Below, piece by piece: positions 823 to 30,516 of a stretch of 64,000 bases of DNA; the stretch's first letter is position 1; each line of letters starts with the position of its first letter. A program made the translations under genes and the position numbers. Source of the DNA: a virus; the IMG/VR virus record IMGVR_UViG_3300046703_000247, positions 19,234 through 83,233 of that record, one strand, 5' to 3'. Under the pieces are notes generated by a model. The model had not been told where the DNA came from. It searched no databases and was given only the letters and a program-made list of their open reading frames with translations.

Positions 823-834
823 TTTCCCACCACC

Positions 835-1215
835 ATGTCTAGAGCCATGGAATACGCGGGCTTGGGGACGATGCAATTGCGGCCCTTTAAGCCCGGCCAG
901 TTGCTTCACCGTCGCGTTCAGCAGCCGCCGCGCGAACTCCCACTGCTGACCACGCGGCAGGCGCAGGTTGTCGCGCTGGTGCGGGAGGGTATCCACTCCA
1001 CAAAGGAGATTGCGTTTCGCATGGGGTGGACGCCTCAAAGCGCGAAAGTGATGCTGGTGCTGCTCTATCGGAGACTGCAAGCGAATGGCTACGGCGTGGA
1101 CAACTTGACCTCGCTAGCCATCTGGGCCTTCGCTCCAGAGGTTCTCCGCAGGGAAGAAAAGGGTTCTAGGAAAAAGGAACCGTCCGGTTCCGTTTCCCTG
1201 GAGCTTCAACCGTAA
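835..1215 (+). CDS. LuxR/GerE-type HTH protein
   Basis: LTTRQAQVVALVREG.STKEIAFRMG.TPQSAKVML..LYRRL; C-terminus is encoded by repeat copy 1. Confidence 0.65.
   Translation: MSRAMEYAGLGTMQLRPFKPGQLLHRRVQQPPRELPLLTTRQAQVVALVREGIHSTKEIAFRMGWTPQSAKVMLVLLYRRLQANGYGVDNLTSLAIWAFAPEVLRREEKGSRKKEPSGSVSLELQP
1150..1211 (+). repeat. Dispersed hairpin element copy 1 (in-frame, LuxR C-terminus)
   Basis: AGGGAAGAAAAGGG..GGAAAAAGGAACC-GTCC-GGTTCCGTTTCCCTGGAGCTTC. Confidence 0.9.
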
Positions 1216-1239
1216 AGCAATTCTCGACAGTTTAGGCCC

Positions 1240-4347: not shown

Positions 4348-4363
4348 TCCGAACGGCGCTGCC

Positions 4364-4831: not shown

Positions 4832-4832
4832 C

Positions 4833-5693
4833 ATGCCGCCAATCGTAATTGCAGGAGCGATTTCAGCCGGAGCTTCTATCGGTGGGGCTCTCATTAACAA
4901 GAGTTCCGCCAATAAGGCGGCCGAGATTCAGGCCGAAGCCGCACGCAAGGCAGACGAGGTCGCCAACAAGCAGGCGGGCTACGTGGCCGACACGGGTTAC
5001 GGCCTGGCCACCAACCTGCGCGACGCGGGCACCGCCAACGAGCAGACGCTGCAGCAGGTATCGGGAACCGGCGAGAAAGCGCTGTCCCCGTACCTCGAGG
5101 CGGGCACGTATGGGGTGACGGCGCTCAAGGACCTCGGTCAGAACTTGAACAAGCCGGTCACAATGGCCGATTTACAACTCGACCCCGGCTTCCAGTTTCG
5201 GATGGAGGAAGGGCAGAAGGCGCTGGAGCGCTCGGCCTCAGCTCGAGGAGGTCTGCTCGGCGGCGGAACCCTGAAATCCCTGGCGCGCTATTCGCAAGGC
5301 GTAGCTTCGGACGAATACCAGAAGGCCTTCGACCGGTACCAGACCGACAATGCCGCGCGCTTCTCAAGGCTGTCCACGCTCACAGGTGTCGGGCAGAACG
5401 CCACCGGCAGCCTGCTGGATCTGAGCAAGTGGTACGGGACCAGTTCCACCGGCAACCGCACGGATACCGAATCGAGAGCTGCCAGCCTGGCCATGGGCGG
5501 AGTGACCGGGGCGGCCGATCTGCGCATGAAGGGGGCTGAGGCCGGCCTACAAGGAGCGAACGCATCGGCAGCCGGCACCGTGGCATCGGGCAACGCCTGG
5601 GCGCAAGGATTGAGCGGGGCGGGCTCGAGCATCTCGAACGCCATCCTGCTCTCTCAGATGCTGAAGCCGCAGACGCAGCCAATCAATATCTAA
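4833..5693 (+). CDS. DNA ejection protein, P22 gp7-like
   Basis: A/G-rich; DPGFQFR..EG.KALERSASARGGL.GG.TLK.L..Y.QG.AS.EY signature. Confidence 0.75.
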   Translation: MPPIVIAGAISAGASIGGALINKSSANKAAEIQAEAARKADEVANKQAGYVADTGYGLATNLRDAGTANEQTLQQVSGTGEKALSPYLEAGTYGVTALKDLGQNLNKPVTMADLQLDPGFQFRMEEGQKALERSASARGGLLGGGTLKSLARYSQGVASDEYQKAFDRYQTDNAARFSRLSTLTGVGQNATGSLLDLSKWYGTSSTGNRTDTESRAASLAMGGVTGAADLRMKGAEAGLQGANASAAGTVASGNAWAQGLSGAGSSISNAILLSQMLKPQTQPINI

Positions 5694-5695
5694 TT

Positions 5696-5750
5696 GAAGC
5701 CACCAGGGGCGAGACCCGGCGGTCTCTCCCCCGGTACCCCCTCGTCCCTG
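5696..5750 (-). repeat. Hairpin element copy 2 (intergenic)
   Basis: Reverse complement CAGGGACGAGGGGG..GGGGGAGAGACC-GCCG-GGTCTCGCCCC. Confidence 0.9.
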
Positions 5751-5764
5751 ATCTGCTCCGTCCG

Positions 5765-5820
5765 AAGGGAGAAAAAGGGTTTGGGAAAAGGAACCATAGG
5801 TTCCGTTTCCCGAGGCCCCA
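5765..5820 (+). repeat. Hairpin element copy 3 (intergenic, back-to-back with copy 2)
   Basis: AAGGGAGAAAAAGGG..GGGAAAAGGAACC-ATA-GGTTCCGTTTCCC. Confidence 0.9.
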
Positions 5821-5839
5821 CTTGAAAGAGGCAATCTTT

Positions 5840-7144
5840 ATGGAACACAAACGCAGTTTCCCACGGGCCATTCTTGGCCTGATCGCGGTTATGGTCCTGT
5901 CGGTAGTCGCACTGAACTGGCAGACCCTGGCCCAGAGCACCGGGCAGTCGGCCATGTACGCGCAGATCTTCAAGACCCAGACGTCGACGGGCCGCAGCCT
6001 GATCTTTGTAGATGCCCGGGGAGTCGGCGCGACCAACCACGTCTTCACCTGGACTACGGCTGGAGTTCCCAGCGGCTGCACCCTGCTCATCGAATCGAGT
6101 CTGGATGCCGTCACCTGGACCACGGCGAGCACCCAGACCTGCACCTCGAGCGGGAGTGTGACCCTCGCAGATGCCAGTTATTCCTTCCTGACCGCGAATC
6201 TGAGCGTGCTGACGGGCGGCTCTACGCCGTCGATCGACGTGGCCTATCGCGGGTACCTGCCGGGGCAGGGCGTCCCCGTGCGCCCGGCGGAAGGCGGGAC
6301 CGGCAGCACAACCGCCTTCACGGCGGGCTCGGTGCTCTTCAGCGGAGCCTTGGGTGTCTACACCCAGGACAATGCCAACTTCTTCTGGGACAACTCAAAT
6401 AAGCGCCTGTGCCTGCTGGCGGCCGCCTGTTCGAACACTCTCGACGTTGGCAACGGCAAGTTCTCGGTGACTTCGAACGGGCTGCTCACGAGCTACGACG
6501 CCACCCTGCGTGCGCGCGTGGCCGGGAGCGTGGCCAGCACGGTAACAGGGGCAGCCTCCCAGACCGCCGCTCTCAGCGAGTGGAAGAACAGCGCGGGAAG
6601 CGTGCTGGCGAGTGTCACGGCAGCCGGGGTGATCACCCCGACCTCGGGTATCGCGGGGACCGGGAAGTCCCGGTTCTCGACCGTGCCGATTGGCTTCACC
6701 GCCTACGGCTCCTTTGGAACCAACACAACTCTGGTTGCCGGAACGATCTATTGGGCCGAGGTCTTCATCCCGCGCAACGTCACCCTCACGGGGATCGGCG
6801 TCTTGAACGGCGCGACCGTGGGCACCGACAAGTGGATTGTGGGGCTGTACGGATCTGCGGGTGGCGCCGTGTTGGCCAACAGCGCCCTGGCCGGAGCGAC
6901 TGCGAGCGGCGCGGACGCCTTCCAGGAGCTGGCTTTCACGGCGACCTATGCGGCGGTCGGACCGGCGCGGTACTGGATCGCATTTCAATCCAACGGAACC
7001 ACCGCCAAGATCCGCACGATTGCGGTGAACACGTTTGTGGATGTGCTGACCGATAGCGATACAGGATCGTTTGGGATACTGACGGCTTTGACGGCGCCGA
7101 CCACGTTCACAGCGGATTTGGGACCCATAGCCTACGTGTACTGA
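5840..7144 (+). CDS. G/T/A/S-rich fibre-like protein with N-terminal hydrophobic or signal segment
   Basis: GGTG.T.AFTAGSVLF....YTQDNANFFWD..NKRL fibre-type motif; AILGLIAVMVLSVVAL at the N-terminus. Confidence 0.55.
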   Translation: MEHKRSFPRAILGLIAVMVLSVVALNWQTLAQSTGQSAMYAQIFKTQTSTGRSLIFVDARGVGATNHVFTWTTAGVPSGCTLLIESSLDAVTWTTASTQTCTSSGSVTLADASYSFLTANLSVLTGGSTPSIDVAYRGYLPGQGVPVRPAEGGTGSTTAFTAGSVLFSGALGVYTQDNANFFWDNSNKRLCLLAAACSNTLDVGNGKFSVTSNGLLTSYDATLRARVAGSVASTVTGAASQTAALSEWKNSAGSVLASVTAAGVITPTSGIAGTGKSRFSTVPIGFTAYGSFGTNTTLVAGTIYWAEVFIPRNVTLTGIGVLNGATVGTDKWIVGLYGSAGGAVLANSALAGATASGADAFQELAFTATYAAVGPARYWIAFQSNGTTAKIRTIAVNTFVDVLTDSDTGSFGILTALTAPTTFTADLGPIAYVY

Positions 7145-7153
7145 GCGATTAGA

Positions 7154-7210
7154 GGCCGAAGCCTCGGGGACGAAACCCGGCGGTTTCTTCCCCAAACCCC
7201 TTCATCCCTG
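7154..7210 (-). repeat. Hairpin element copy 4 (intergenic)
   Basis: Reverse complement CAGGGATGAAGGGG..GGGGAAGAAACC-GCCG-GGTTTCGTCCCC. Confidence 0.9.
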
Positions 7211-7216
7211 ATCGCA

Positions 7217-7525
7217 ATGCCCAAGCTCAAAGGCGTCAGCAACTCCGAGGGCCAGCGTCTGGGCTACATGATGGAGTGCCCCGGCTGCGGCCAGTGGCAC
7301 GTCATCTACACCGAACAAGCCAACGACCTCAAGGCCCGCTGGACCTTCGACGGAAACATGGAGAAGCCCACCTTCCACCCTTCCATTCTGTGCCGCTGGA
7401 CCGAAGGCAAGGAGCAGGTGAAGAAGGTCTGTCACTTCTTTGTGCGCGCGGGCAAGATCGAGTTCTGCGGCGACTCGACACACGCGCTGGCGGGTAAGAC
7501 CGTAGATCTACCGGACTGGAGTTAA
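7217..7525 (+). CDS. Small Cys/His protein, DUF6527-like
   Basis: CPGC..H...W.FDG..EKPTF.PSIL...CHFFV..G.I.FC.DSTH.LAG.TVDLP. Confidence 0.65.
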   Translation: MPKLKGVSNSEGQRLGYMMECPGCGQWHVIYTEQANDLKARWTFDGNMEKPTFHPSILCRWTEGKEQVKKVCHFFVRAGKIEFCGDSTHALAGKTVDLPDWS

Positions 7526-7531
7526 CTGCTA

Positions 7532-7855
7532 ATGCCAATCCCAGAAATGCTTTGGTGGCTGATCGTCGCGCACGCCCTCTGCGACTTCCCGTTGCAGGGC
7601 GACTTCCTGGCGCGCGGGAAGAACCACCGCGCTCCGATTGCCGGGGTGCCCTGGATTATCTGTCTCTTCTCCCACGCGCTGATTCACGGCGGAGCGGTGG
7701 CGCTCGTGACCGGCAGCGTCTTACTCGGAGCGGCCGAGACTGCCGCACACGCCTGGATTGACTGGGCCAAGTGCGACGGCCGCTACGGGTTCGCGGTGGA
7801 CCAAGGGCTGCATCTGCTGGTCAAGGTCGGGTGGGTGATTTGGCTGACGCGCTAG
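7532..7855 (+). CDS. Membrane protein, DUF3307-like
   Basis: H.L.DFPLQ...K...H..IH...H..ID..K...DQ.LH motif. Confidence 0.7.
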   Translation: MPIPEMLWWLIVAHALCDFPLQGDFLARGKNHRAPIAGVPWIICLFSHALIHGGAVALVTGSVLLGAAETAAHAWIDWAKCDGRYGFAVDQGLHLLVKVGWVIWLTR

Positions 7856-7858
7856 AAC

Positions 7859-8173
7859 TCAGCCGTGCCGGTGCCGGCGAGCGCGGCGAGGAATCCATGG
7901 CGGTTCAGGGCTTCTTTTCATGGACACTTTCTTTCCCAATACAGGCTGGAAGCAGAAGGACGATTCAACCACTTCCGTGATTCGGAACTGTGTCGGGTCC
8001 TCAAAGAACGTAACAATGTCCCCAACATTGAGAAATGCCAGACCATTGACCTGGCAAGCAGTTCCCGGCGGAATACATCCGAGAGACGGGATGCCGGCTG
8101 CCGGTGCGGGCTGCGGCAGCAGTGGCGCGGCAATCGCGCCCGCCAGCGCTCCGATGAACCCGCGTCGATTCAT
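7859..8173 (-). CDS. Small protein with twin-arginine-like N-terminus
   Basis: MNRRGFIGALAGAIAAP; TG-n-CAGAAT 6 nt upstream of the ATG. Confidence 0.5.
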   Translation of the reverse strand: MNRRGFIGALAGAIAAPLLPQPAPAAGIPSLGCIPPGTACQVNGLAFLNVGDIVTFFEDPTQFRITEVVESSFCFQPVLGKKVSMKRSPEPPWIPRRARRHRHG

Positions 8174-8191
8174 AAACCCATTCTGCCACCG

Positions 8192-8248
8192 AAGGGAAAA
8201 GAAAGGTTCGGAAAGAGAAACCTCGGTTTCGTTTTCCGAGGCCCCCAG
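8192..8248 (+). repeat. Hairpin element copy 5 (intergenic)
   Basis: AAGGGAAAAGAAAGG..CGGAAAGAGAAACC-TC-GGTTTCGTTTTCCG. Confidence 0.85.
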
Positions 8249-8263
8249 TAAAGGAACCGTGCC

Positions 8264-9820: not shown

Positions 9821-9821
9821 C

Positions 9822-12800
9822 ATGCCCCTTACCGATACCCCCGACAGCTTCGTGCCCGACGTTCCGACCCCGGAAGAGGTCGAAGCCGAGTTGCGCGCGG
9901 CTGCCAAAGCCCACGGCCTCGACGAGGACCTGGCGCTACGTGTGGCCAACCGGGAAAGCCGGCTCACGCAGTCCGCCACCTCCCCTAAAAAGGCGCGCGG
10001 AGTCATGCAACTGATGCCCGAGACAGCCAAAACCCTGGGCGTCGATCCAGAGGACTGGCAGCAGAACATCCAGGGTGGGGTGAAGCTCCTCAAGAGTAAT
10101 CTTGACTACTACAAGGGCGACACCAGGAAAGCGCTCGCGGCTTACAACGCCGGACGCGGACCCGTCGACAAGTACAACGGCGTTCCCCCCTACAAGGAAA
10201 CCCAGGAGTATGTGGATAACATCCTCGGCAAGCCCGTAGCCCCGCCGCCGAGTTTCGAGCCGGATCCGCCCAGCTTCGAAGCGGACCAGCCGGTCACCAT
10301 CCCCGGCCTACTTAAACCGGGCAATATCGACCTCACCGCCAGGCCCGTTCATAAGAACCCTGATGGCACAACCTCAACAGTGCTTTCCATGAGGTTTGGC
10401 GAGGATGGCAAGGAAATACTGGTTCCCAAGGTCAGTGAGGATGGGACCTGGATACTGTCCGACGAAGAGGCGGTCGACACCTACCACAAAACGGGGAAGC
10501 ACCTCGGGATCTTCAAGGATGTGCCCAGTGCGAACGCCTATGCGCAGCAACTCCACGAAGATTACGCCTCCGGAAGAATCAAGTTAAAGACCCCGGGGGC
10601 CGCTGACCCGCCCAGCTTCGAAGCGGACCAGCCGACTGCACTCCAGGTTCCCGCCCAGATCCCCAGCCGAGCCGAACTGGCCACGATGGGCGAGCGCTTG
10701 GGCGTCCTACGCATGACGCTCGATACTCAGGCCGAGCAGATGGCCCGCAACCGGGCCGCGCTCGAGGCCGAGGCCCAGCAGTTCACCCCCAAGACCCCTC
10801 CCGAGCAACTGGCGGCCTTCGACCAGAAGGTGAAGTTGCACAACCTGGACCTGGCCGAGTTCCAGAACGCGGTCGCCGGGCACGCCAAAGACATCGAGGC
10901 GTACAACGCCGGGACGGCGGCGTTCAACGAGAACCTTGGGCGCTATGACCAGGCAATGAAGGTGCCGCCGGGCACCCAACGGACAGGACTCCCAGGAATG
11001 CCGCTCACCCGCATGCCGGTGCAGGTGCAGCCGAGCGGGGTGTTAGGCCTGGCTAAAGAGTCGCTGCCTTGGAAGATTGCCAACACCCAGGCATTCAAGG
11101 CGCTGGGATTGCCCACCACCGCCGACGCCTACGACTATTCGGTGGAGGCTGCGAAGAAACTTGTAGCGAAGGTGCTGGGTGAACCGAGCGAAACCACCGC
11201 CAGGAAGCACCCAGGCGTGGCAGCAACCCTCACATTCGGCGCGCGCGTTGCCCGCCTGTTCCCTGAAGTGGCCGACTTCATCCTGACGCCGGCGGGGACG
11301 GCTACGGCCATCGCGACCGCGGTCGCCCCTCCGGCGGTAGTCGCAGGTGTGGGCGCCGCCTTCAGCACAGACATCGCCCTGAAGGCGAATGACGCCATCG
11401 AAGTAGCCCGGACCAACCCGACTCCCGAGAATATCGGGGAGGCCGTCAAGCTGTCGGCTATGGCTCTCTTGCCCTTCCTGCGGCCGGCGGCCGAGTTGGG
11501 CCGGAAGGTCGAACGCGGGATCGAACAGCACAACGTCCAGGCGGCCCAACTGGTGGAGCGGGAGCGCACCCAGGGGTTAGGAAAAGAATGGGGGCAGGCC
11601 ATCCTTGGGGAAGAGCCGGTCCGCGTCGAGATTGCGGGGAAGTCCCACACTATTCAGGCGCTGGGCGGGAATCCTGTTGCCGGTAGTGTCAGACCGCGTC
11701 CCACCTACCAAGTGGTGGATGATGCCACCGGCAAAGCCGTCTACTCGGGAGAAGCTCCGGCGGTCCAAGGTTATCTCGAACAGCAGCAGGCAGTTCGAGT
11801 CGGCGGGCTCGTAACATCTGTCGACCAGATCTCAGCGCAACTCGATACTGAGTATTCCAAAGCCGTGGCCGACCGCGCGGTGGCCCAATCGGTTCGGGAC
11901 CAGATCAGACAACTTCAGAAATTCTCGCCCGAGCAACTGAAGGCCGAGCAAGCCAAGGGCAAGGTCATCCTGGACCACGAGGCCGAACTCAACCAAAAAG
12001 GCGTAGCGGGGCTCTCGGAAACAGACCTGGTGGAGGTCCAACAGCACCTCCAGATGGTCGATGATCTACTCGCCGGGAAGCCCATCAGCGACAACTTTGC
12101 CGAACAGGCCGTCAAGGAAGCCGACGCACATATCTCCGAAATTCAGAAGAAACGGGCACAACTCGGAGCCGAAGGCACGAAGCTCCCACAAGCGCAGCGG
12201 CCCGCCGCCCCCGGGCCCGCCGCTCCCGCCGTGATCGCCAAAGGCACCACCGTCGCCGGCGGGAAGATCACGGTCACCGAGGTCAAAGGCGGCAAGGTCG
12301 GCTTCGAAAAGACCATGCCCGGCGGCCAGAAGATCCGCGGAACCATGCCGATCGAAGCCTTCCGGTCCCAGTTTCTTGCGACGTCGCAGCCTGTTCAGCC
12401 GCAGCCTACTGCTCAGCCGAAGCCTCGGGAGACGGAACCTACGGTTCCTTCTCCCAAACCCACTTTTTCCCTTTCGGAAGCCGAGCAGGCGCAGTACGAC
12501 CAGGTCGCGGAGTTCGCCCGCACCGCCGGAAAGCCGCTCACCGACAAGTTGCTTTGGGAGAAGTTGAAGATTCCGCGCCACGAGGGCGCAAAGATCCTCG
12601 CGGTGATGAAGCAGCAGGGAGCGCTGGACCAGCAGGGGCAGCCGCAAGCTCTTTCGCCGCAGCCTGTTGTTCAACCGCAGCCTCCAGGGGCGAAACCTGC
12701 GGTTTCTCCCCTAGCAACCCCTCTTCCCTTGAACGCCGCCCCGGTCGGCCAAGCCTACCAGGGCGAGCTGGCGGGCGACTGGTCGCCCTACTACCGGACC

Positions 12801-15800
12801 ATGGCCGAGGCGCAGGCCGCCGGCGCGAAGAACGTGCAACTCGGGGCGGCTCCGGAGGTATGGAACGGGCAGAAGTGGGCGGGGGCGGTATCAAATGATG
12901 CCAAGCAGCAGGCTCAGCCGCAGCCTCCAGGGGCGAAACCTGCGGTTTCTCCCCTAGCAACCCCTCTTCCCTCCGAACCCCAAACGCCCGCCCTTGAGGC
13001 GCTGAAGCGCCAAATGTCGGACTTCTACAGACGGCGCGTGCGCGTGAACGACCGCACCTTCGTGGGGGGCGTCTACAATCCCAATCGCTCCGAAGAGGAA
13101 CGCCAAAGCATTGACGCCCAACTAGAAGAGATTGATTCCGAGGCGCGCAGTGTTCTGTCGAAGGTCCCACAGAACGACTTGCCCGAGCTAATGAGCGCGG
13201 ACAACCGGATGCGGGTCCTTGAAGGGGACAATCCCCTAACCCGAAATGACAGAGGAGGCCCTGACTGGGCAGCGCAGGAATGGCTGAACCGGATTGTCGA
13301 GGTGACGCCGGAGCGCGCCGCATTGTCTGCGCCGACAAGCACCCCAGCCCCAGCAGGTAAGCAGATTGCCGCGCCCCAGCCCCCCGCTGTGCGCGCGCCG
13401 GCCCCCGCCGAGACTCCAGCATCCTTCGAGCCGGACACACTGCCCAGGAGCCTGGAACTGGAGCAGAAGCACGGTCTCTCACCCGCCGAGGCAGCCGTCA
13501 TCAACCATGCGCTCGACCGCCTGCCCCAGGTTCGCAAGGACTACTCCAGCGCAGCGGAGGCACTTCAGAAGGAAGCCCTGCGGCTGGCGGCGCCGGCGAA
13601 CGTCCCGCTCGACAAGATCGCCAACATCAAGTTGCTCAAGCGCATCCTGGCGGACTACCTCGACCCCGAGCAGTTTAGAGCCGCAGAGGCGCAGAACAAG
13701 GAACCCTGGCAGATGACGCGGGAGGAGTTCACCGCCCCGGTGCGTGAGGATCTGGCTCGTTGGAATTCGTCCTTCGATGAGTTGCGCGCCAAGAGAGGCG
13801 GGACTCGCGGACAGACCCCAGCACAGGCTCTCTTTGATGCGAAGCAGAAGCACGAAGAGGGAAGAAAGCCCTACCTCGAACGTATCGCGGAGACAGAGCA
13901 ACTTCATGAGCGGAACATTCGCCGTGCGGTTGCAGACGGTAAACCCGTTCCGGCCGCAGTCCTAGCCGAGTACCCCGATCTGAAGCCCGCGCAAGCACTC
14001 GACCCCGACCAAGTCTACCGACGCGCACAGGCCGAGATGGAGCGGCGCCATCTGAAGCAGGGGCTGGAGCAGTTAATCGCCCTCGACCCCGACAACCCGC
14101 GTGAAGACGATCTTGGAGTTGGCAACGATCTTGAGGACGTAACAGGAAACCTGCAAAGCATCGGCTTCTCCAGACCGGAGATCCAGGCCGTACTGGAAGG
14201 CCGCCGCCAGCGGCTCCAGGCGCACCGTGAGCAATCCGCGCGCGCGGCTGAAGCCATCAAGCCGGCGATGCCTGGGGGCGTGGTCTATGAAGCGGTGGGC
14301 AAGGCTGTGGGCGCTTCGCGCGATAAGAAGGACTCCCAGATGTTCGTGTGGCGCACGGACAGCGAGAAGCAGGGCTACGAGTTCCTGAACGCGCTGGGCA
14401 ACAACCTCCAATATGGCCACAAGGATCTGCCGGCCGCCATTCGCGCGGTAGCCGAGCAGAACCCAGATTGGACGGATCTATCAAAGACGGCTCTCACTGC
14501 GCTCGGAAGGGAAGAAGTGGTCTCGGAGAAGAAACCGCAGGTTGCGTCTCCGGAGTCTCAGCCGAAAGAAAAGCCCACCGAGTACGACTTCGCCTCCACC
14601 CAGGTGAACCTCCCGCCGGAGATCGCCCAGGCCATGCAGGAGTTCAACGCCCAGATCCCAGATGAAGACCTGGCGGTAGAGGCGGGAGCCAAATACGGCG
14701 GGGAGACAGCCGCCAAGGGCCGCGAAGAACAGTCGCACGTCACCCTGCTCTACGGAATCAAATCCGAGAACCCGGACGCTGTGCGCAAGTTGCTGGAGAA
14801 CCAGCCGCCCATCACCCTGAAGCTGGGCAAGACCTCGGTGTTCGCAGGAACCGACAACGGCGATGTGCTCAAAATCGACGTGGAATCAGAGGATCTGGAG
14901 CGGCTCAACAAGCTGTTGAAAGACAACCTGGAGTTCACCGAGACCCACCCAGGCTACAAGCCCCACGCCACGCTGGCCTACCTCAAGGTGGGGAAGGGCA
15001 AGGAGTGGAGCGGCAAGGACGTGCCGGGAGTCACCGGGAAGACTGTAACCCTGGACCGGATTGCATTCTCGGACAAGAGCGGGGAGCAGACATCTATCCA
15101 ATTGAAAGGTGAGAAGCCGCAGACTACTCCTAAGCCGCAGCCTCGGGAGACGGAACCAACGGTTCCTTCTCCCAAGCCCGCTTCTTCCCTTTCGGAAATC
15201 CCGAAGCCGAAGGCCTACACCTTTGCCAATCACAAGTTCATGTCGGCGAAGGACAAGCAACTCACCTTCAAGGCGTGGATCACCTTCCTCCGCAACGGGC
15301 TACAACAGAAGGACTTCACCAAGCGGCTGTACGAGCAACTCCACCAGCACATGGGCTTCATCGCCCACTACAACATCAACGGGTTCTACGAGGAGTACTT
15401 CCTGCACGGCGAGGACACCGAGCGGTTCATTCAGCACTTTGACCTGGCCGACCACCGCTACGGTCCGGACTCCACCAACGGATTCTGGATGAATAGTGAC
15501 ACCGCCAAGGATTTGAACCGCGCCATGGTGGATGAGGCGGCGCCGTATCTGCCCGGCCTGTTGGAGAAGGCGGCGGCGGGCCAGAAGGCCGAAGACCTGG
15601 CGGAAGCGCAACGGCTCCAGGCGAAGCACGGCGCGCCGGCGCCGGCGCCGGTTGTCACCCATAAACTTCAGGGCGGAGGGATCGTACAGGAGTTGAAGTC
15701 TCCGGAATTGCGTTTTCAGAAGAACGACCACGTTCGCTGGACCGACAAAGACGGAAATGCCAAAGAGGGATACGTCAGCCGCGTCGAGGGTCACCTGGTT

Positions 15801-18800
15801 TTCATCGGGACAGAGTCAGATCAGAAGTTCGGGATGTTCCGCCCGGTGATGGCGAGCAAGGTCGAACTGATCGAGGATGAGGGCGACACCCCCACTCCGA
15901 AAAGGGATGAAGGGGTCGAGGGGAAGCAACCGCAGGTGGCGTCCCCTCGGGCTCCAGCCAAGACAGAAGCGCCCGCCAAGACCGGAGATATCGAGCGCCA
16001 GATCACCGAAGCTGAATCCGACTTGGCCGCCGCCCGTAAGCTCTACGAGGGCACCGAAGACGGAACACTCGACCAGGAAGAAGCCATCCGGGAGATGCAC
16101 CAGGCGCTGGCCGAGGTGAACCGCCTCCAGGCCGAAGCCGCCAAAGAGAACCCGCTCCTCACCGAACAGGCCGAAGGCCGCCGTCAGACCATGCCCCCGA
16201 TGCCCAAGGGCAAGGAGAGCCACTGGCAGCAGTTGATGGACGACTCCTCCGACCTGGGGGCCACCGCCGGCGAGGAGTACGTCGTTGACTACGGCCTATG
16301 GGTCGAGCGCGGCAAACCGGCAGGCAAGGAACCCGAGAAGCCCAACGCCGAGCGTGAGACCTCCATCGACCGCGGCGAATACCCCAAGGGTTGGCTGCGC
16401 CAGGCGGCCGCCGAGTTCCAGACCAGCTTTGATAAGGAAGTTGCCAAGGGGCTGAAGGAGATTGAGCAGGAGACCGCCAGAAACGCGGCGGGAGCGGCGG
16501 CCGACGCGGCGCGCGAGCTCGAGATCCGCAAGGCTGAGATTCAGGACCTGGCCGCCAAGTTGCGCGAGCACGCGAGCGGCGATCGCACCGACCTGGCGGA
16601 GCGCAAGCGGCTCGTCACCGCCGCCCTAGACCTGAAGACCGGCAAGAAGCTCAACGAGGACACCGATGCGCTCTGGGAGCAAGCAATCCGCCCGGCCATC
16701 GAGGCGATCCGTCGCGCCGCGGTGGACAAGATTGAGGGCAAACAGATCACCCCTGACACCCCTGTCTGGGAGATGCGACCAGCGCAATACCTGGAGCACC
16801 GGCGCGAACAGGCGTTGCAGATTCCAAAGGGCAGCTTCCTCGAGCGCGAGCCCGGGGAGTGGCGCACCGAGTTTCTGGTAACGCTGTCCAAGGAGGAACT
16901 TGGGGTATTGCTCCGCCTCAACGGTCTCCCCATAAACGGCACCAAAGCCATGATGGTGCAGCGCTTCCAGGATGCCCGCGCGTTGCGCAACCAGTTCGAG
17001 GGCAAGACGGCGGAGCAGATCGAAGAGGAGATGACTGGCGCGGAGATCGACCGCGCGCTGGAACAACTCGGGGCGGGGAAGTACGGCAACAAGCTGACGC
17101 GGGCCGGGACAATCCTCGGCACCATTCAAAGCCAGCGTAAGAAGGGCGAGAGCGTCCTGGCTGAATTCAACTATCAGCGCGCCATCTATCGGGCAGTGGG
17201 GAAAGGCCAGCCGGTCCCCGAGGAGATCCAGAAGAAGTACGGCGCCTTCCAGACAATCGAGGATGTTGCCGCCGCAATTCCAGAAGAGGGGACCGCGGAA
17301 CCAGACAAGAAAATCAGGATTGGCGACCGGGTCACATGGAAGGGATTCGACAAGGTTGTACGGGTCGGCACGGTCAGCCACATTCGCCACCACATAGAGA
17401 ACGGCCGGGAGCGCAATACGCTGGAGATTGACGGCGACGACCATGGCCGCTACTTCCCTGACGACGTCGACGTCACGAAAGTAGCCGCCGAAACCAGGGA
17501 TGAAGGGGGCGCGGGGGAAGCAACCGCAGGGTTGCGTCCCCAGCAGGCTCCGGCAGAAACACCCGCCGAACCGACGGAATACGCCTTGTCGGGCGACACC
17601 TACCGCTTCAAGAACATCATCCGGGCCCAACTGCAAGGCAAGTGGAACGGCAAAGAAAAGGTGTGGATTATCCCCGCCAGCCAGGTGGAGGCAGCCCGGA
17701 AACTCTCAAAGAAGATCGAGGTGAAGCCCTTCGGGCAGGTGAAGACAGCCCCCGCCCAGCCGCCCATGGACGAGCAGACCGCCTCGGCCGTCATCCAGGA
17801 TCTGGTCAAGACCATCTCCGAAGCCCAGGAAGAGGTGCACTTCGCGCAGAACGACAAGGACACCGACAAAGGCGCAAGCACTCAGGCAAACGAGGCCAAA
17901 CTGGCTACGGCCGTCAAGGATCTGCGGAGCGTGGTAACGGAAGCCAAGAAGTACTTGGACTTTCCAAACGCACCGGAGAGCGATAGGGAAGCTTTGCGGA
18001 CTCAACTCTACCGCGCCGAGCAAAACCTCAGAGGATATGAGCGCCCCGGCCCCTCCATCAACCAGACCATCGAAGCCGAGAAGTACGTTGAGAAACTGAC
18101 GGGTCCCGAGCAGACCTACGCGGCGAAGTACAAGGACTACTGGCTGGGAAAGATCGCCGAAGAGCCTCCCTACGTCGGCGTCCACATCAACCCGCTGCGC
18201 GCTGAAGGCATCCGGACACATCTAAAACACGTCCTCGGAAAACGGGTAGAGGTTACCGGCGGGCCGGAAGCTACGAAGCCCGCGACCGAGACGCGCGTCC
18301 CCAAGTGGGGCAACCTCACAGAATTGGAAGCTGAGCTGCTCCGCGGCCTCAATAGACCACAGCCTATTGGTGATCTCTTTGATTCGATCGGTCAGCATTG
18401 GCCTGATTCCGAGAAAATCAAGGTGCTTCATGCACTCGACAGCCACGGTCTGGTAAAAGCCATCCACGGCGGCGGGTACGAGCGCACCGAGGCGGGCACC
18501 GTCGCAATCGGCAAAGGACCGGCGGAAGCGTATCTTCCGAAGGGGACCGCGCCGGCGCCTGCACCGAAGGGCAGCTTCAAATACGAGTTCCAGGTGCACG
18601 GCGAAGGCGGCAAGTGGAGCGACAACGCCCTGCGCTTTGCCACCGAGAAGGAAGCCCAAGCAGCCGGAGATGAGCACCTTACGCGCTGGACCATGGCCGA
18701 TGCGGTCCGGGTGGTGCCGTCCGAGGATGCGCCTAACTACCGCTGGGACGACGACCAGTACAAATCCGTCCGGCTGTCCGGGAAGGAAGAGGGGGTGCAG

Positions 18801-21800
18801 GGGGAGAAACCGGAGGTTTCGCCTCCTGAAGCGCCGGCCCCAACAGTTGAGGAAGCCCTGGCTATCATCGAGAGAAAAGGCTCAGCCCATTGGGAAGACA
18901 CTACCATCAAGGTGGTTCCACACCCATCGGTTACCGGGATGGTCGACACCGATGGAACCAGCTTCTCAGTAGAAGTGACCCGGAATGGGGAGCGCAACAT
19001 CATCGAAGCCGCCCCTCTGTCCCTGGAAGATGCCCAGAAAAAAGCTGCCCGGATGCTGGTGGAACGCGCAAAACTTCCGCCACTCGGCAAAAAACAGAGC
19101 ATAATGGAGGCGGAGCAACCCAATGCCCCAGGTGGAATACAGCAGCCCGTTCGTTCAACTGGTGCTCGACCAGTGGAAGAACAACTTCCCGAAGGAAGCC
19201 GAGCGCCTGGAGAAGCAGGGAACGCTCCTCAAGTGGGCCGAGTACGCGACCAAGCGGGCGGGCGCGGTACACGAGCAGGCGCTGGCAAACGGAGCGAGCT
19301 ACACCCAGGCGGAGGATCTGTCCCTACCCGAGTGGGGCCAGCCACCGACGTTGAACGATCCCTCCCTCCCCGTTCCCGAGACGTAGCCAACAACCGCCAC
19401 GAGCACGACTTCCGCATTCCGGACCGGCGTGTCATTTCCGGATCCCCTGAAACCCGGGCGAAAGCCAACCTCGCAGCCATCCGCCTGTTGCGCGAAATCC
19501 AGCAAGACAACCGCGCCGCCACGGTCGAGGAGCAGGAGACCCTGGCGCGGTACGTCGGATGGGGCGCCGTTCCGCAGTTGTTCGCCGGCAACACCTCAGA
19601 GTGGAAGGCGCTCCAGAACGACCTGCGCAAGTCGTTGAGCGAAGAGGAGTACTCTCTCGCCCAGAATTCCACCAAGAACGCCCACTACACGGGAGATGAG
19701 GTGGTGGATGCCATGTGGGCCACGCTCGAGCGGATGGGCGCCACGCCGGGCATGAACTGGCTGGAGCCCGCGGTGGGAGTCGGGAACTTCTTCGGCCGGC
19801 AGCCGGAGGCCTTGCTCGCGGGTTCGCGACGAATCGGAATCGACAAGGATTCGCTTTCCGCACAGATTGCCACGCTGCTCTACCCGGACTCGGGCATCCA
19901 GAACCAGCCCTTCGAGGAAGCCGAACTCCCCAAGGACTACTTCGACGCCGCCATCTCAAACGTGCCCTTCGCCGATGTTAAGGTGCACGACCCTGAATTC
20001 CGCAACAAAATATACCTGAGATCGAGCGTTCACAACTACTTCTTTGCAAAGACTTTGGGCAATGTGAAGCCGGGCGGCATCGTGGCCTTCATCACTTCTC
20101 ACTACACCATGGACGCCTACGGCCAAGAGGCCAGGGCTTTCCGGAAGTGGATCGCTTCACAGGCCGATTTCCTCGGCGCCGTGCGGCTGCCCTCGAACGC
20201 CTTCATGCAGAGTTCGGGCACCCACGTCATCACCGACATCGTCTTCCTACAGAAGCGACTGCCCAACGCTGCGCCCGCCGGCGAGGATTGGGTGGAGACG
20301 GTGAACAAGACGCTCTCCGGGCAGTGGGGCGTGTATCCCGTAACCACCAACGCCTACTACAAGCGGCATCCCGAACACCTTCTGGGAGAGGAGAAGCTGA
20401 AACGCGGCCAGTTCTCAGACCATGATTACTTTGTGGAAGGGGAACTGACGCCGGCCGCCCTGAAGAAAGCCCTCTCCAAGATCCCCGGCCAGTTCCAGCA
20501 ATGGCAGACAGGGGCGACGGCCCCCCGGCGGATCGCCCTGCGGGAGATTCGCGCAGAATCCGACAAGGCCAAGCTCGGAGCCCTCTTCTTTGATGACAAG
20601 GGCGACCTGTTCCGCAAGACCAGCAAGGGATCCGCTGAGCCGATTCCCGTGAGTGCGGATGCCAAGCAGAAGATCAAGGGTCAGTTGGAATTGCGCAACG
20701 CCTACGCGGAGCTGCTCGAGCTCGAGCGCAAGGATGCCCCCGAGGCGGCGCTCGATAGCGCCCGCAAGCGGCTCAACCGGATGTACGACAAGTACGTCGC
20801 CGAGCACGGCCCCTTATCGAGCCGAAGCAACACGGAGCTGCTCAAGGGAGATCCGGACGCCCCGCACGTCGTCAGCCTGGAGCGCAAGTGGGACCCCAAG
20901 ACGAAGACCGCCGAGAAGTCCCCGATTTTCAAGCGCCGCATGCTCCAGCCGCCCAAGGCCCTGGAACACACCGCCGACGCCAAAGATGCTCTTTACGTCT
21001 CCCTGAATCAGACCGGGCGGATTGACTTCGAGCGCATGGAGAAGTTAACCGGCAAGGGAAGCACCCAACTCCAGAGCGAGTTGAAGGGCATCATCTACCA
21101 GGACCCGACCAGCCGCGAGTGGGAGATGGCCGACGAGTATCTCTCCGGAGCGGTGCGCACGAAGTTGCGCCAAGCCCAGGCCGTGGCCAAATTGGAGCCC
21201 GAGTTTGAGGAGAACGTCAAGGCGCTCGAACAGGTGCAGCCCGACGACATTCCGCCGGCACAGATCAGGGTCGCACTGGGCGCAACCTGGGTTCCGATCG
21301 ATATCTACACCGAGTTTGCAACGCACATTCTGAACAGCTCGACCGACACCCCGGTCCGCTACGTGGCGAACCACTGGCACGTGGATGAGCCCTACTACAG
21401 TTCCGCCCGGTCCAAGAGCCAGTGGGACACCGGCCGCATGAATGCCCACCAGATCCTGGAAGGCTCCCTCAACATGACGCGCCTCAAGGTCCACGACTGG
21501 GACAGCGATAAGAAGCGGGATGTTATCAACCAGCCGGAAACGGCCGCGGCGCAGGCCAAGCAGCAGGAGTTGCAGACCTACTTCGAAAGATGGCTTCTAT
21601 CTACCGAGGCCGCGCGCACGGACCAGATGGTGCGCCTCTACAACGATGCGAAAAACGACCTCCGCCTCCCGACCTTTGACGGCTCCCACCTGACCCTTCC
21701 GGAAATCGTTCGGGATCCGCAGATTGTGACGGGCGGCGATCTGGCACCCCACCAGAAGAATGCCGTTTGGCGCGGCATCAAGCAGCGCAATGTGCTCCTG

Positions 21801-24800
21801 GCCCACTGGGTAGGAACCGGCAAAACCTTCGAAGGCATCACCATCGGCATGGAGCTGAAGCGGCTGGGTCTCATCCAGCGGCCGATGTACGTGGTTCCGA
21901 ACGCCACCCTGGGCGGTTGGCAGTTGCAGTTCAACCAACTCTACCCGCAGAAGCGCGTCATTGTTTTCAGCGAGAAGGACCTGGAGAAGGAAAACCGGCG
22001 GGCCACTATCGCGCGCATCGCGGGCGGCGAGTGGGACGCGGTTGTCATGCCCGAGTCCAGTTTCCGGTTCATCCGCACCGGCGACGAGATCTTCAACCAG
22101 CATTTTCAGCGTCTCCAGGAAGAATTGGACACCTCCATCCAAGAGGCTGAGGGCGCCGGGATGGACACCCGGATGATTAAGCGCATGGAAAAGATGCGCG
22201 ACAAGCTGCTCACGGCCCTGCAGGATAAGCGCAACGCGGAGCGGCAGGATCAGACCATCATCTGGGAGCAGTTGGGGATCGATTGGCTGTTCGTGGACGA
22301 ATCCCACCACTACCGCAAGTTGGGGTTCTCAACCAAACAGCAGAACATCGCCGGCATCGATGTGAACGGCAACCAGATGACGTTCGACCTGCTCATGAAG
22401 ATGCGGCACGTCCAGACGACCGGGCGCGGAGTGGTCTTCGCCACGGGTACACCGATTGTCAACACCATTGGGGAAATGTACTCTCTGATGCGCTACCTGA
22501 TTGAGCCGGAAATGCAGGCGCGCGGCATCGGCCGCTTCGATGAATGGTCGGCCGACTACGCCCGGACGGTCCCCGTGTTCGAACCGAAGGTGGAGGGTGG
22601 CGGCTACCGGATGAAGGACCGCTTCGCCCGCATCGTCAACATCCCCGAGTTGGCGAACCTGTTCCGCTCCTTCGCCGATGTGGTCACCAATGACATGGTA
22701 GACCTAAAGATCCCGGGTTTGGCGGGAGGGGAACGCAAGAGCATCCTGACGGACTTGAGCGACGAGCAGACTCAATATCTGGAAGAAGATCTGCGACCCC
22801 GCGGGGCCGCTATTCGCCACAACCCCCGGGATGCCATGCCGGACAACATGCTGGCTGTCTATACCGACGCCGGCAAGATGGCATTGGACATCCGGACGGT
22901 AATGCCGCACGCCAAAGAGGACCCCGGCAGCCGGCTGAACAAAGCCGCCGAAATCATCTTCCGCGACTGGCAGGACAGCGCGAAGACGAAGGGCGTACAG
23001 GCCATATTCTGCGACTGGGGCAAGCCCAACAGCGCGCGCCCCCTTGCGGATCGCGGGCAGTTCTCGGTGTACGACGAGCTGATTCGAAAGCTGATTAAAA
23101 AAGGCATCCCGCGCGAGCAGATTGCCACTATCTATCAGGCGAAAGGGAAGGACCAGCGGGCCCGGCTCTTCCAGCAGGTGAACGAGGGGACCATCCGGAT
23201 CATCCTCGGTTCCACGAAGAAGCTCGGTGAAGGCGTAAACATTCAGGAGCGCCTATATTCCCTTCATCACCTGGACCTGCCGCACACGCCCTCGGAACTA
23301 GACCAGCGCGAAGGCCGCGCCCTGCGCCAAGGGAACACCAACCCCGACGTGCGGGTGTACTACTACATGACCCGGGGCTCACTCGACGAAATGAAGTTCG
23401 CCAACGTCCTGCGTAAGGCGAAGTTCATCCTGGCCATGATGCAGGGCAAGGCCACGGTACGCGAGGCCGACGACGTGGGCGGTATGATCCCCTCTCTTGA
23501 GATGTTCCAGGCGGCCACCTCGGGGGATCCGCGCGTGCTGAGGAAGATGGAGGTTGACGCCGAAGTAGCGCGCCTCGAGGCCATTCACTACGCCTGGCGG
23601 AATCAGCAATGGGACGAGCGGCGCCAGTTGGCGGACCTGCCTGGCAGAATCAGTCGCTTTGAAACTACCATCTCCAATTCCCGAAGTGACATCGCCCTGC
23701 GGGACGCGCACCTGCCGGGGGTGTGGTCGGTCCGCGGGCAGACCTATGAAGGCAAAACTCCGGAAGCGGCGAAGGCACTTGCCGAGTACTCCAACAGCAG
23801 GCGAAGGGAGCATGACGCGGATCTGAAAACGGAGATGGCCAAGGCTATAGCGGAAGGCGGTGAAGACGCCAAGAAGGTCCGCGCGCTACAGAATCGAGCC
23901 TTTACAGAAGCGGGGAAGCGCTTTCCTCCCGAGATCATCGCTGAATACGCCGGTTTCAAGATCCGGTTTGATCCCATTGATGGGGCAATGACCATCGTTG
24001 GCGAAGGGTCCGCATACGGGATGGAGCGGCAGGACACCGCGACAGGCACGCTCGCGAGCGCAGCCTACTTCATTCACCACCATTTTGAAAAGGCCATCAC
24101 CAGTGCCGAAGAGGACATTGCCCGCGCCAGGCGCGACGAGGAACAGTTGCAGATCTCTGTCGGAAAGTCCTGGCCCTATCAGAAGCAGTTCGACAACCTG
24201 GTTGCCGAGCAGGAGACCCTGACTCACGATTTGGGCGGCGATCACGGAGACCCCGGCGCCGCTCTGCTCGAGGATGGGGAGGAAATAGAAGACAAGCGGG
24301 TGGAAGCCGAGGAGACGGCAGAGTCTGGAGACGAGGCCCAGCCGGAGCAGCCGCACCCAACCACACCCAATCCACCTACGCCGGGCCGGCGGCCGGGAGC
24401 AGCTACGCAATCCCGCCGCTCCAGCCAGGCCGGCGCGGCCAGCCTCGATCTGCTCACCCTGGGAGCGCCCAAGTTCATCCAAGAGGATGTCGCCCCAGCC
24501 CTCGGCAGGGTCGCCCAGAACTTTGTGGCGGTCAAAAACGAGATCTTCACGATTATCGCCCCGGCCGCTCGCGGGCCCGCCGCCAAACAAACTGCCCTCT
24601 CCGTGCGCTACCGGGCGGCCGAGTTGGCCCAGAAGACGGACCGTGCCCTGGCCGCCCTCAAGGAAACCCGCCGCTACTTCGACTCGCTGCCCGAGTGGAA
24701 CCGGTTGGAGTTCATGGACCGCATCGAAAACGGCCAGCAGCAGATCTATCCACAGGAGGACGCGATTGCTGAGGTCTTTCGCGAGATGCTCGACGGCCGC

Positions 24801-28902: not shown

Positions 28903-28925
28903 ATCTGCATCATCCTGCCTTTTTG

Positions 28926-28985: not shown

Positions 28986-29001
28986 CGGCTAGAATCGAAG
29001 C

Positions 29002-30284: not shown

Positions 30285-30296
30285 CAGAACAACTCC

Positions 30297-30509: not shown

Positions 30510-30516
30510 CACGTCA

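What the first reader, a model, noticed from the sequence alone, without database searches (positions are those of the whole stretch)
12415..18839. Eight elements are translated in-frame inside the giant protein and sit at apparent module boundaries
Seen: copies 6-13 all fall in the 6.4-kb variable middle of the ORF and none lie in the SLT, MTase, helicase or C-terminal parts. They are read on both strands, giving unrelated peptides (PRETEPTVPSPKP, PPGAKPAVSPLATP, EKKPQVASPESQP, GEATAGLRPQQAP), so conservation is at the nucleotide level. The 2H domain is tightly bracketed by copies 9 and 10. Other copies add tails to the portal, MTase, nuclease and LuxR proteins. Established analogy: Rickettsia palindromic elements inserted in proteins. 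Inference: the elements act as joints for domain shuffling that diversifies an injected anti-defence protein.
Basis: partly seen in the sequence, partly recalled or inferred. Interest (0 to 1): 0.82.

Follow-up and report, generated by a model that had tools for sequence, protein, structure and literature searches.

The report
Hairpin repeats translated as protein linkers
Eight copies of a small hairpin-forming DNA repeat that is scattered over this peat phage's genome are read through as flexible linkers between modules of its giant injected-type protein, and several module differences from related phages begin or end at them, which hints, without proving, that the repeats help swap modules.

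Summary
A structured ~60-nt hairpin repeat has 31 copies in the 83-kb phage contig, 25 of them in the window. Eight lie inside the 5786-aa ORF, all between nt 12414 and 18841. Four are read on one strand and four on the other, giving unrelated Pro/Ala/Glu/Lys-rich peptides.

All eight lie in stretches with no predicted secondary structure, but both models are poor. The 2H/Acb1-like domain is bracketed by copies 4 and 5.

Against three homologous giant proteins, module insertions, a replacement and homology edges fall at the elements. The order of shared domains is nevertheless conserved.

Six of 10 breakpoints lie within 12 aa of an element. This beats random placement (p about 1.5e-4). It does not clearly beat a null limited to Pro-rich linkers, where 8 of 17 carry an element.

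The family is not private to this phage. It occurs in at least 12 other viral contigs and many peat and soil metagenome contigs. It also sits upstream of a 539-aa ORF in an IS-like unit of Bryobacterales.

Closest known: in-frame REP/RPE-type repeats and PeSL-mediated shuffling. I class it as a new variant of a known kind. The scan has noted in-frame hairpin repeats on other DNA before.

The parts
9822..27182 (+). Giant ORF, 5786 aa (P0001): SLT at the N-terminus, a variable middle, N6-MTase plus SNF2 helicase, and a C-terminal part
12414..12474 (+). Element 1 (F), aa 865-885, QPKPRETEPTVPSPKPTFSLS. G005 has a PQ-rich linker of similar length here with no detectable element
12671..12730 (+). 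Element 2 (F), aa 950-970. An orthologous copy is present in G005 (P0002 aa ~1115)
12915..12972 (+). Element 3 (F), aa 1032-1051. 97-98% identical to element 2 over the element only. Absent in G005. Left edge of the replaced 511-aa segment
14506..14559 (-). Element 4 (R), aa 1562-1580, directly upstream of the 2H domain. Same place and frame in G158; absent in G005 and G157
14559..15110 (+). 2H / Acb1-like phosphoesterase module, aa 1580-1763 (HxT motifs SHVTLLYG and PHATLAY read in the translation)
15131..15192 (+). Element 5 (F), aa 1770-1791. 90% identical to element 1. This element plus about 150 aa are absent in G005
15900..15961 (-). Element 6 (R), aa 2027-2047. G005 has a decayed copy at the same place
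15963..17492 (+). 510-aa segment between the direct repeats 6 and 7. Absent in G005. Made of two sub-modules, one of which holds the SAP domain and also occurs as stand-alone small proteins
17495..17554 (-). Element 7 (R, read in a different frame), aa 2558-2578, directly before the YALSGDTY domain
18783..18841 (-). Element 8 (R), aa 2988-3007. The orthologous copy in G005 has a different inner stem and equal stability. About 70-80 aa after it are absent in G005
40843..40905 (+). Copy read through as the C-terminal tail of the DNA methyltransferase gene 40800..42614 (-)
60267..60325 (+). Copy forming the C-terminus of the portal gene. With copy 60340-60394 (R) it forms an 'empty' inverted doublet
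5691..5823 (.). Inverted doublet F 5691-5749 / R 5764-5823 between two core ejection-region genes. G005 has about 50 nt here with no element
7153..8251 (.). F 7153-7210 to R 8191-8251, bracketing DUF6527 and DUF3307 genes that are absent at this site in G005

Best explanation
The eight sequences are copies of a dispersed, structured hairpin repeat of about 60 nt. It behaves like a REP/MITE-type element. It is common in peat and soil phages and also occurs in an IS-like unit of Bryobacterales. In this phage it has multiplied to 31 copies.

Outside the giant gene the copies sit at gene borders and bracket accessory genes. Inside the giant ejection-type protein they survive only in disordered inter-module linkers, and only in reading frames that give Pro/Ala/Glu/Lys-rich peptides. 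Translation is therefore a tolerated by-product.

The copies are 60-nt stretches of homology in a fixed frame, so they probably also serve as crossover points. Homologous recombination or gene conversion at them would insert, delete or replace whole modules without breaking the frame, much as PeSL cassettes do between genes of T4-type phages.

Shown: the family, its structure, its in-frame reading, its linker position, and module differences that abut elements. Inferred: that recombination at the elements caused those differences, and that the protein is injected.
For: Family and structure.
- 31 copies; 8 of 12 stem pairs covary.
- ORF copies are as stable as intergenic ones and are interleaved with them by similarity.

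Frames.
- 4 of 4 F copies and 3 of 4 R copies share a frame, although nearly all three frames per strand are open in the 25 copies.

Linkers.
- 8 of 8 elements lie in DSSP-coil segments with pLDDT below 50. Helices start 1-6 aa after elements 1, 3, 6 and 8.
- 8 of 17 Pro-rich linkers in the variable middle carry an element, against 0 of 9 elsewhere in the protein. My hand-computed one-sided Fisher p is about 0.016.

Module differences.
- G005 lacks the 510 aa between direct repeats 6 and 7 and keeps one decayed copy at the junction.
- G005 lacks element 5 plus about 150 aa, and about 70-80 aa after element 8.
- The 511 aa between elements 3 and 4 are replaced by unrelated sequence in G005.
- G000 and G158 homology starts exactly at the 5' edge of element 4. 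The element looks more conserved than the adjacent 2H domain in the printed nucleotide alignment; by eye about 85% against about 60%, not computed by a tool.
- Element 3 is a 97-98% copy of element 2 confined to the element itself. It is absent in G005 and so looks recent.

Structure kept in a coding copy.
- Element 8 of G005 has a different inner stem and a different peptide but equal stability, -20.9 against -21.0 kcal/mol.

Gene level.
- F..R pairs bracket genes absent at that site in G005 at the 5 sites I could compare.
- G005 itself has no dispersed repeat family.
Against: - With a null restricted to Pro-rich linkers, 6 of 10 breakpoints at element-bearing linkers is not clearly more than the 8 of 17 linkers that carry an element. 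Four breakpoints (1944, 2652, 2914, 3087) lie at element-free linkers.
- Shared domains keep the same order in all four giant proteins.
- The comparison phages are distant (33-65% aa identity), so no crossover can be mapped inside an element.
- Modules A and B of the 510-aa segment occur in other giant proteins that show no element-type peptides. This was a regex test only.
- No variant joints appear in the one peat DNA run.
- No Y1 transposase or tyrosine recombinase is found in the 86%-complete contig.
- The structure models are poor (mean pLDDT 44.6 and 46.9). Even the 2H domain is modelled as coil.
Confidence: 0.5

Rival explanations
1. Pure passengers. The elements are selfish or neutral insertions that are tolerated only in disordered linkers. 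Module differences coincide with them only because both are confined to linkers. They play no part in shuffling.
For: - Under the linker-restricted null, 6 of 10 against 8 of 17 is not significant.
- Domain order is conserved.
- At element 1, G005 has a PQ-rich linker of nearly the same length with no element, so the difference there is simple presence or absence in a linker.
- Other giant proteins share modules without element-type peptides.
- The sister phage G005 has no intergenic copies at all.
Against: - Direct repeats 6 and 7 flank a clean 510-aa indel.
- Homology with G158 starts exactly at an element edge, and the element looks better conserved than the neighbouring domain.
- Elements are in 8 of 17 linkers of the variable middle but in 0 of 9 elsewhere.
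- Hairpin structure is kept by compensatory change in a coding copy of a diverged phage.
Confidence: 0.33
2. Fusion scars. The middle of the giant gene was built from once-separate genes. The elements are their former 5' and 3' border elements, now read through after loss of stops and starts.
For: - Outside the giant gene, R copies lie 12-170 nt before starts and F copies 0-172 nt after stops.
- The 2H module is flanked R..F, like free-standing genes such as 5822..7144.
- Sub-module B exists as stand-alone proteins of 180-250 aa elsewhere.
- The polyvalent-protein paper argues for accretion from solo versions (passage in PMC5512222).
Against: - The 2H module sits at the same relative place in G005 and G157 without flanking elements.
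- No remnant RBS or start was noted by eye after the R copies in the ORF (translation; not scanned).
- The order F F F R F R R R does not give clean R-module-F units.
Confidence: 0.2
3. Functional signal inside the gene. The hairpins act on the mRNA or the DNA of the giant gene itself, for example as attenuators, processing sites, ribosome pause sites between domains, or protein-binding sites.
For: - Stem covariation and structure kept in coding copies across phages.
- Orientation relative to genes is non-random outside the ORF.
Against: - G005 does without intergenic copies, and G157 has none in its giant gene.
- Both orientations occur in the ORF.
- No match to any Rfam family.
- Not terminator-like in the simple scan: 20 sites found against 21.6 expected.
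- No RNA data were available.
Confidence: 0.12

Closest known systems
Rickettsia palindromic elements (RPE) and REPs located inside genes
   Same: Short palindromic dispersed repeats inserted in frame in ORFs, translated, and compatible with protein function. REPs lie mostly downstream of genes and often in inverted pairs (passages of PMC10969869, and PMC3733652).
   Different: - This case is in a phage, with eight copies in one gene, on both strands, all at module borders.
- There is no terminal GTAG or CGTC tag (GACG in only 9 of 25 copies, and inside the stem).
- No RAYT is present.
- RPEs are about 150 bp; this element is about 60 nt.
PeSL (promoter-early stem-loop) cassettes of T4-type phages
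   Same: Dispersed intergenic stem-loop cassettes in a phage. Recombination between copies explains insertions, deletions and replacements between close relatives (abstract and section 14 of PMC2839356; PMC4122927 seen in the search listing only).
   Different: - PeSLs contain a sigma-70 promoter and lie between genes.
- Here no sigma-70-like promoter was found in window 1-20000 (0 found, 2.4 expected).
- Here copies lie inside an ORF and are translated.
Polyvalent proteins of phages and conjugative elements (DarB-like)
   Same: A giant multidomain protein that combines SLT, DNA methylase, SNF2 helicase and small enzyme domains. The paper argues these were pieced together from solo versions (abstract start in the search listing; passages of PMC5512222).
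   Different: That paper names no sequence-level mechanism for accretion. The words 'linker' and 'shuffling' occur 0 times in its main text. Repeat elements at module borders are not described there.
MITEs shared between viruses and hosts
   Same: The same small repeat occurs in phage genomes and in genomes of the likely host group (abstract of bioRxiv 10.1101/2024.01.18.576219; here).
   Different: In the MAGs the element is rare (4 of 151 Bryobacterales genomes sampled). There it forms part of an IS-like unit and is not an abundant free MITE.

Membership tests
REP (GTAG- or CGTC-tagged palindromic repeats) | GTAG or CGTC tetranucleotide at one end of the palindrome | tested here: not met
   The 5' flank consensus is GCCGnAGCC. 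GACG (CGTC on the other strand) is present in only 9 of 25 aligned copies and lies inside the stem. The feature is taken from passages of PMC3733652.
REP (GTAG- or CGTC-tagged palindromic repeats) | Association with a RAYT (IS200/IS605-type Y1 transposase) | tested here: not met
   PF01797 has no match in the 86%-complete contig; the control rings in 6 of 14 genomes. Host genomes were not tested.
REP (GTAG- or CGTC-tagged palindromic repeats) | Short GC-rich stem-loop, mostly downstream of ORFs, often in inverted pairs, sometimes inside genes | tested here: met
   The element is longer (about 60 nt with a hairpin of about 38 nt) than the 20-40 bp given in the paper's abstract (listing).
MITE | Terminal inverted repeats, target-site duplication and a related autonomous IS | tested here: inconclusive
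   F-R doublets look like TIR pairs. No target-site duplication could be read, because relatives are too diverged. The element lies near the left end only of an IS-like unit, and 10 of 51 assessable metagenome copies are in that context.
Rickettsia palindromic elements | Sequence relatedness to RPE families; Rickettsia host | not tested
   I held no RPE sequences. The resemblance is functional only (in-frame translated palindromic repeat; passages).
PeSL cassettes | Sigma-70-type early promoter joined to the stem-loop | tested here: not met
   0 promoter-like sites in window 1-20000, against 2.4 expected. This phage's host promoters may differ, so the test is weak.
PeSL cassettes | Indels and replacements between relatives bounded by the cassettes | tested here: met
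   Five F..R intervals hold genes absent at that site in G005. Within the ORF. The relatives are distant, not 96% identical as in the paper.
Intrinsic terminators | GC-rich hairpin directly followed by a U tract | tested here: not met
   The scan finds 20 sites against 21.6 expected. Only two of its sites overlap elements (1191-1176 and 7164-7180). The 3' tail is CCCCTTCTTCCCT and starts 3-5 nt after the stem.
Polyvalent (DarB-like) phage proteins | Many unrelated effector and enzyme domains in one polypeptide of a phage, including DNA methylase and SNF2 helicase | tested here: met
   SLT 6.9e-21, Eco57I 3.5e-6, SNF2-rel 5.6e-6, Helicase_C 1.3e-8, weak Acb1 and SAP. P0002 is named N12-class adenine methylase by JGI.
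Virion-packaged ejection protein (T7 gp16-like) | Presence in virions and ejection into the host | not testable with these tools
   Context only: N-terminal SLT, and a position downstream of a 'DNA ejection' PHROG gene. The likeness to T7 gp16 is recalled, not tested.

The most novel reading that the evidence does not exclude
The hairpin repeats are frame-standardised connectors of a phage 'exon-shuffling' system. Because every copy in a given orientation is read in one frame, recombination between any two copies, whether inside the giant gene, at gene borders or in co-infecting phages, swaps or inserts whole anti-defence modules into an injected polyvalent protein without breaking it. The hairpin itself is kept by selection even in coding copies, through compensatory stem changes, because it is the recombination or template-switch substrate.
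Probability: 0.27. Interest if true: 0.85.

Novelty: new variant of a known kind. Interest (0 to 1): 0.64.

Why it matters
Giant polyvalent proteins of phages are thought to be assembled from solo domains, but no sequence-level mechanism has been given. The main paper on them has no mention of linkers or shuffling.

If dispersed, in-frame hairpin repeats are the joints, two things follow. It would explain how phages rapidly re-equip an injected counter-defence protein. It would also give a simple sequence signature for finding module borders and recently acquired cargo in uncultured phages.

The case also extends in-frame palindromic repeats, known from Rickettsia and some bacterial genes, to phage genes. 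It links a phage repeat to an undescribed IS-like element of Acidobacteriota, which points to the host group.

If the elements are only passengers, the case is still a clean example of how strongly protein linkers filter where selfish DNA can persist.

Tried and rejected
Searches that gave nothing.
- Megablast of the giant gene against the phage collection: no match.
- Rfam at gathering and at permissive thresholds: nothing credible.
- tRNA scan: none.

A search that was too strict.
- My first DNA pattern matched only 2 hits in G000 when checked later. The 0 viral hits are therefore uninformative. The looser pattern was used.

Host abundance.
- I considered that the element is an abundant host REP. 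Rejected for the genomes sampled: 4 of 151 Bryobacterales genomes, 1-4 matches each (only 34 candidates per genome scored), and 0 in the Paludibaculum MAG.

Mobilising enzymes.
- RAYT and tyrosine recombinase searched in the phage: none.
- The 539-aa IS-like protein has no homologue in G000 or G005. It has no Pfam or NCBIfam family. The Atlas gives only unnamed clusters.

In-frame copies elsewhere.
- Of 67 copies in 58 metagenome loci, one was flagged as inside a long ORF (L094) and one locus (L095) looked like it. On reading the translations, L094 lies after the stop of a transposase-like ORF (my reading by eye, untested). L095 has no clean long ORF. Neither matches the giant proteins, so neither was counted.

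Orientation rule.
- It was not clearly reproduced in G159 or G160, where copies sit in tight intergenic gaps in either orientation.

Structure.
- Single-sequence AlphaFold models were poor. I did not run fold searches on them.

RNA and population data.
- No RNA holder was listed.
- The single peat DNA run, probably the source sample, shows contig breaks at the near-identical elements 2 and 3 and no joints.

Limits.
- Supplementary files of papers were not opened.
I therefore could not get DNA for P0003-P0028 (except P0006, through) and tested those proteins by peptide regex only.

Full report
**What the window is.**
The window is bases 19234-83233 of an 83,233-nt IMG/VR viral contig. The record is linear with an estimated completeness of 86%, and the window's GC content is 62%. 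The only run that holds it is a peat metagenome.

It encodes a portal, a large terminase, a DNA-ejection protein and a DNA methyltransferase. It also holds one ORF of 5786 aa at 9822..27182. That ORF carries these Pfam domains:
- an N-terminal SLT domain (E 6.9e-21);
- a weak Acb1/2H match at aa 1636-1721;
- a SAP motif at aa 2354-2385;
- an Eco57I-type methylase;
- a SNF2/helicase region.

This is the architecture of the 'polyvalent proteins' of phages (PMC5512222: abstract start in the listing; passages). That it is packaged and injected is inferred only from the SLT domain and from its place after the ejection gene.

**The element.**
The repeat finder shows a family of about 46-60 nt on both strands. 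A profile search finds 31 copies (E <= 1.1e-8) in the contig, 25 of them in the window.

The consensus is GCCGnAGCCnCnGGGGACGAAACCTGCGGTTTCTTCCCCnnnACCCCCTTTTTCCCTT. RNAalifold predicts a 12-pair hairpin interrupted by a kept C/T mismatch, and 8 of the 12 pairs show compensatory changes among the 25 copies.

It matches no Rfam family. It is not terminator-like in the simple scan, which finds 20 sites against 21.6 expected.

**The observation.**
Eight copies lie in the giant ORF, at aa 865-885, 950-970, 1032-1051, 1562-1580, 1770-1791, 2027-2047, 2558-2578 and 2988-3007. In order, their orientations are F F F R F R R R. All fall between nt 12414 and 18841 (p = 0.005 for such clustering). None is in the SLT, MTase, helicase or C-terminal parts.

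Frame use is not random. Nearly all three frames of each strand are open in the 25 aligned copies. Yet all 4 F copies use the frame that gives QPxPPGAKPAVSP or PRETEPTVPSP, and 3 of 4 R copies use the frame that gives EKKPQVASPE. The portal's element-coded tail uses the same F frame.

The ORF copies are not decayed. Their hairpins are as stable as those of intergenic copies, -18.4 against -18.6 kcal/mol, p = 0.73. Their nearest relatives include intergenic copies.

**Linker position.**
Two single-sequence AlphaFold models cover aa 850-2049 and 2020-3110. Both are poor (mean pLDDT 44.6 and 46.9).

In them all eight elements lie in stretches with no secondary structure and pLDDT below 50. Helices begin 1-6 residues after elements 1, 3, 6 and 8, and a small beta domain ends before element 6. 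The known 2H domain is also modelled as coil, so this is weak evidence.

A crude composition scan finds 26 Pro-rich, hydrophobic-poor segments in the protein. Seventeen lie in the variable middle, and 8 of those carry the elements. Nine lie elsewhere, and none of those carries one.

**Relatives.**
Length-matched homology search finds one giant relative, P0002 of 5551 aa. It lies on the complete 87,779-nt phage G005, which is syntenic at 62-89% nt identity in the blocks that align (most 65-78%).

G005 has no dispersed repeat family. It has only three element matches, all inside its giant gene.

A looser DNA pattern plus the covariance model finds the family in at least 12 other viral contigs. 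Counts in five whole records are 2, 2, 11, 6 and 3. Two of these, G157 and G158, have giant MTase-helicase ORFs of 3402 and 4854 aa.

**Module comparison.**
Against P0002 the conserved blocks are:

| P0001 (aa) | P0002 (aa) | Note |
|---|---|---|
| 17-272 | 9-259 | |
| 243-1020 | 425-1186 | |
| 1580-1763 | 1621-1803 | 2H domain, 65% identity |
| 1944-2053 | 1818-1929 | |
| 2552-2652 | 1920-2020 | |
| 2914-4652 | 2188-3934 | |

. From these blocks and the alignments:
- The 511 aa between elements 3 and 4 are replaced by unrelated sequence.
- Element 5 plus about 150 aa are an insertion.
- The 510 aa between the direct repeats 6 and 7 are absent in G005. G005 keeps one decayed copy at the junction.
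- About 70-80 aa after element 8 are absent in G005.
- Elements 2 and 8 are orthologous in both phages.
- Element 8 of G005 has a different inner stem (GGAAGC/GCTTCC) and a different peptide, but equal stability: -20.9 against -21.0 kcal/mol.
- Element 3 is a 97-98% copy of element 2 limited to the element itself, and it is absent from G005.

In G158 an R copy sits in the same frame directly before the 2H domain. Homology with this phage starts exactly at the element's 5' edge. In the printed alignment the element looks better conserved than the domain; by eye about 85% against about 60%, not computed. G157 has the 2H domain without any element.

**How strong is the link?**
Six of 10 homology breakpoints lie within 12 aa of an element. 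Under random placement of the elements, p is about 1.5e-4.

Breakpoints must lie in linkers, however, and so must tolerated insertions. All 10 breakpoints are at or near one of the 17 Pro-rich linkers of the middle region. Six are at element-bearing linkers and 4 at element-free linkers, while 8 of 17 linkers carry an element. That is no clear excess.

The order of shared domains is the same in all four proteins. What is seen is insertion, deletion and replacement, not permutation.

The 510-aa segment consists of two sub-modules. One occurs as stand-alone 180-250-aa proteins and in other giant proteins at other positions (21 hits). None of the 26 other proteins I held (P0003-P0028) shows element-type peptides by regex. 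Module movement in general therefore does not need this element.

**Outside the giant gene.**
These statements rest on my rough GC3-based gene calls.
- F copies lie 0-172 nt after stop codons.
- R copies lie 12-170 nt before start codons, usually with an RBS and ATG 15-35 nt further on.
- F..R pairs enclose either 12-16 nt (5691/5764 and 60267/60340) or small accessory genes (DUF6527, DUF3307, mini-genes). These genes are absent at that site in G005, which has a short spacer or other cargo there.

This echoes earlier first-reader notes on this genome and the PeSL cassettes of T4-type phages (PMC2839356: abstract and section 14).

The MTase gene reads through a copy. Its G005 orthologue ends 6 codons after the point where the element begins.

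**Where else the element lives.**
The strict pattern hit six genome contigs, five of them Bryobacterales or Bryobacteraceae MAGs.

There the element lies inside the left end of a 1.94-kb repeated, IS-like unit, about 90 nt upstream of a 539-aa ORF. That ORF has no Pfam or NCBIfam family. A 55-59% identical ORF in two other MAGs has the same arrangement.

Only 4 of 151 sampled Bryobacterales genomes matched.

These gave 72 model matches. Ten of 51 assessable copies are followed by a homologue of that ORF.

A 2H-bearing giant protein from a Paludibaculum MAG fits an acidobacterial host.

**Verdict.**
- The elements are best read as a REP/MITE-like dispersed hairpin repeat that persists in the giant protein only in linkers and in benign frames.
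- That they also act as recombination joints is plausible. The support is the flanked indel, the edge-exact homology with G158, the recent copy at a replacement edge and the gene-level cassettes. It is not demonstrated, and the passenger explanation remains a serious rival.
- Known parallels: RPEs and intragenic REPs (passages of PMC10969869; PMC3733652) and PeSL shuffling. I class this as a new variant of a known kind.
- My paper searches found no description of in-frame dispersed repeats at module borders of a phage polyvalent protein.
- The scan's own notes list in-frame hairpin repeats on other DNA.

Noticed in passing
L011:2620-4562 (minus strand); also L009, L013, L014, L036 and metagenome loci L092, L099, L103, L121, L141, L145, L147, L151: A ~1.94-kb IS-like repeat of Bryobacterales (left end CTAGCCAAA.A.ATTTGAAATTT). 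It holds one 539-aa ORF with no Pfam or NCBIfam family and a weak C-terminal winged-helix hit. There are at least 4 copies in one MAG. The hairpin element lies 80-91 nt upstream of the start codon. This may be an undescribed transposase family.
   Followed up: partly
window 5691-5823, 7153-8251, 28923-30673, 57018-57408, 60267-60394; upstream of the window at -14065..-13717, -3574..-2880, -229..1208: F..R inverted pairs of the element enclose either 12-16 nt or small accessory genes that the sister phage G005 lacks at that site. Outside the giant gene, F copies follow stops and R copies precede starts.
   Followed up: partly
window 15963-17492 (P0001 aa 2048-2557): The segment between elements 6 and 7 is two sub-modules. 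The SAP-containing one (aa ~2213-2492) has stand-alone homologues of 180-250 aa and copies inside other giant proteins of 2000-5400 aa at other positions.
   Followed up: partly
G005 (IMGVR_UViG_3300037424_002164), giant gene, P0002 aa ~2259-2274: The orthologue of element 8 keeps a hairpin of equal stability with a different inner stem and a different peptide. Structure, not peptide, is conserved in a coding copy.
   Followed up: yes
window 8151-8190 and the stretch about 2980-2941 bases before the window's start: Two R copies share about 40 nt upstream. On the opposite strand this is the start (MNRRGF...) of small twin-arginine-like mini-genes already noted by first readers.
   Followed up: no
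window 15600-15900 and 17300-17490: Small beta-rich domains (SH3/Tudor-like by eye; strands predicted in the model) directly precede elements 6 and 7. A similar motif occurs in P0002. Possibly a repeated 'module + small beta domain + element' unit.
   Followed up: no
window 12700-12950: Contigs of the one peat DNA run break at the near-identical elements 2 and 3. This is an assembly effect of the repeat; no structural variants were seen.
   Followed up: yes
G159 (IMGVR_UViG_3300005531_000248, 81,155 nt, flagged provirus): It carries 11 model matches of the same element but has no homologue of the MTase-helicase part of the giant protein. The family crosses phage types.
   Followed up: partly
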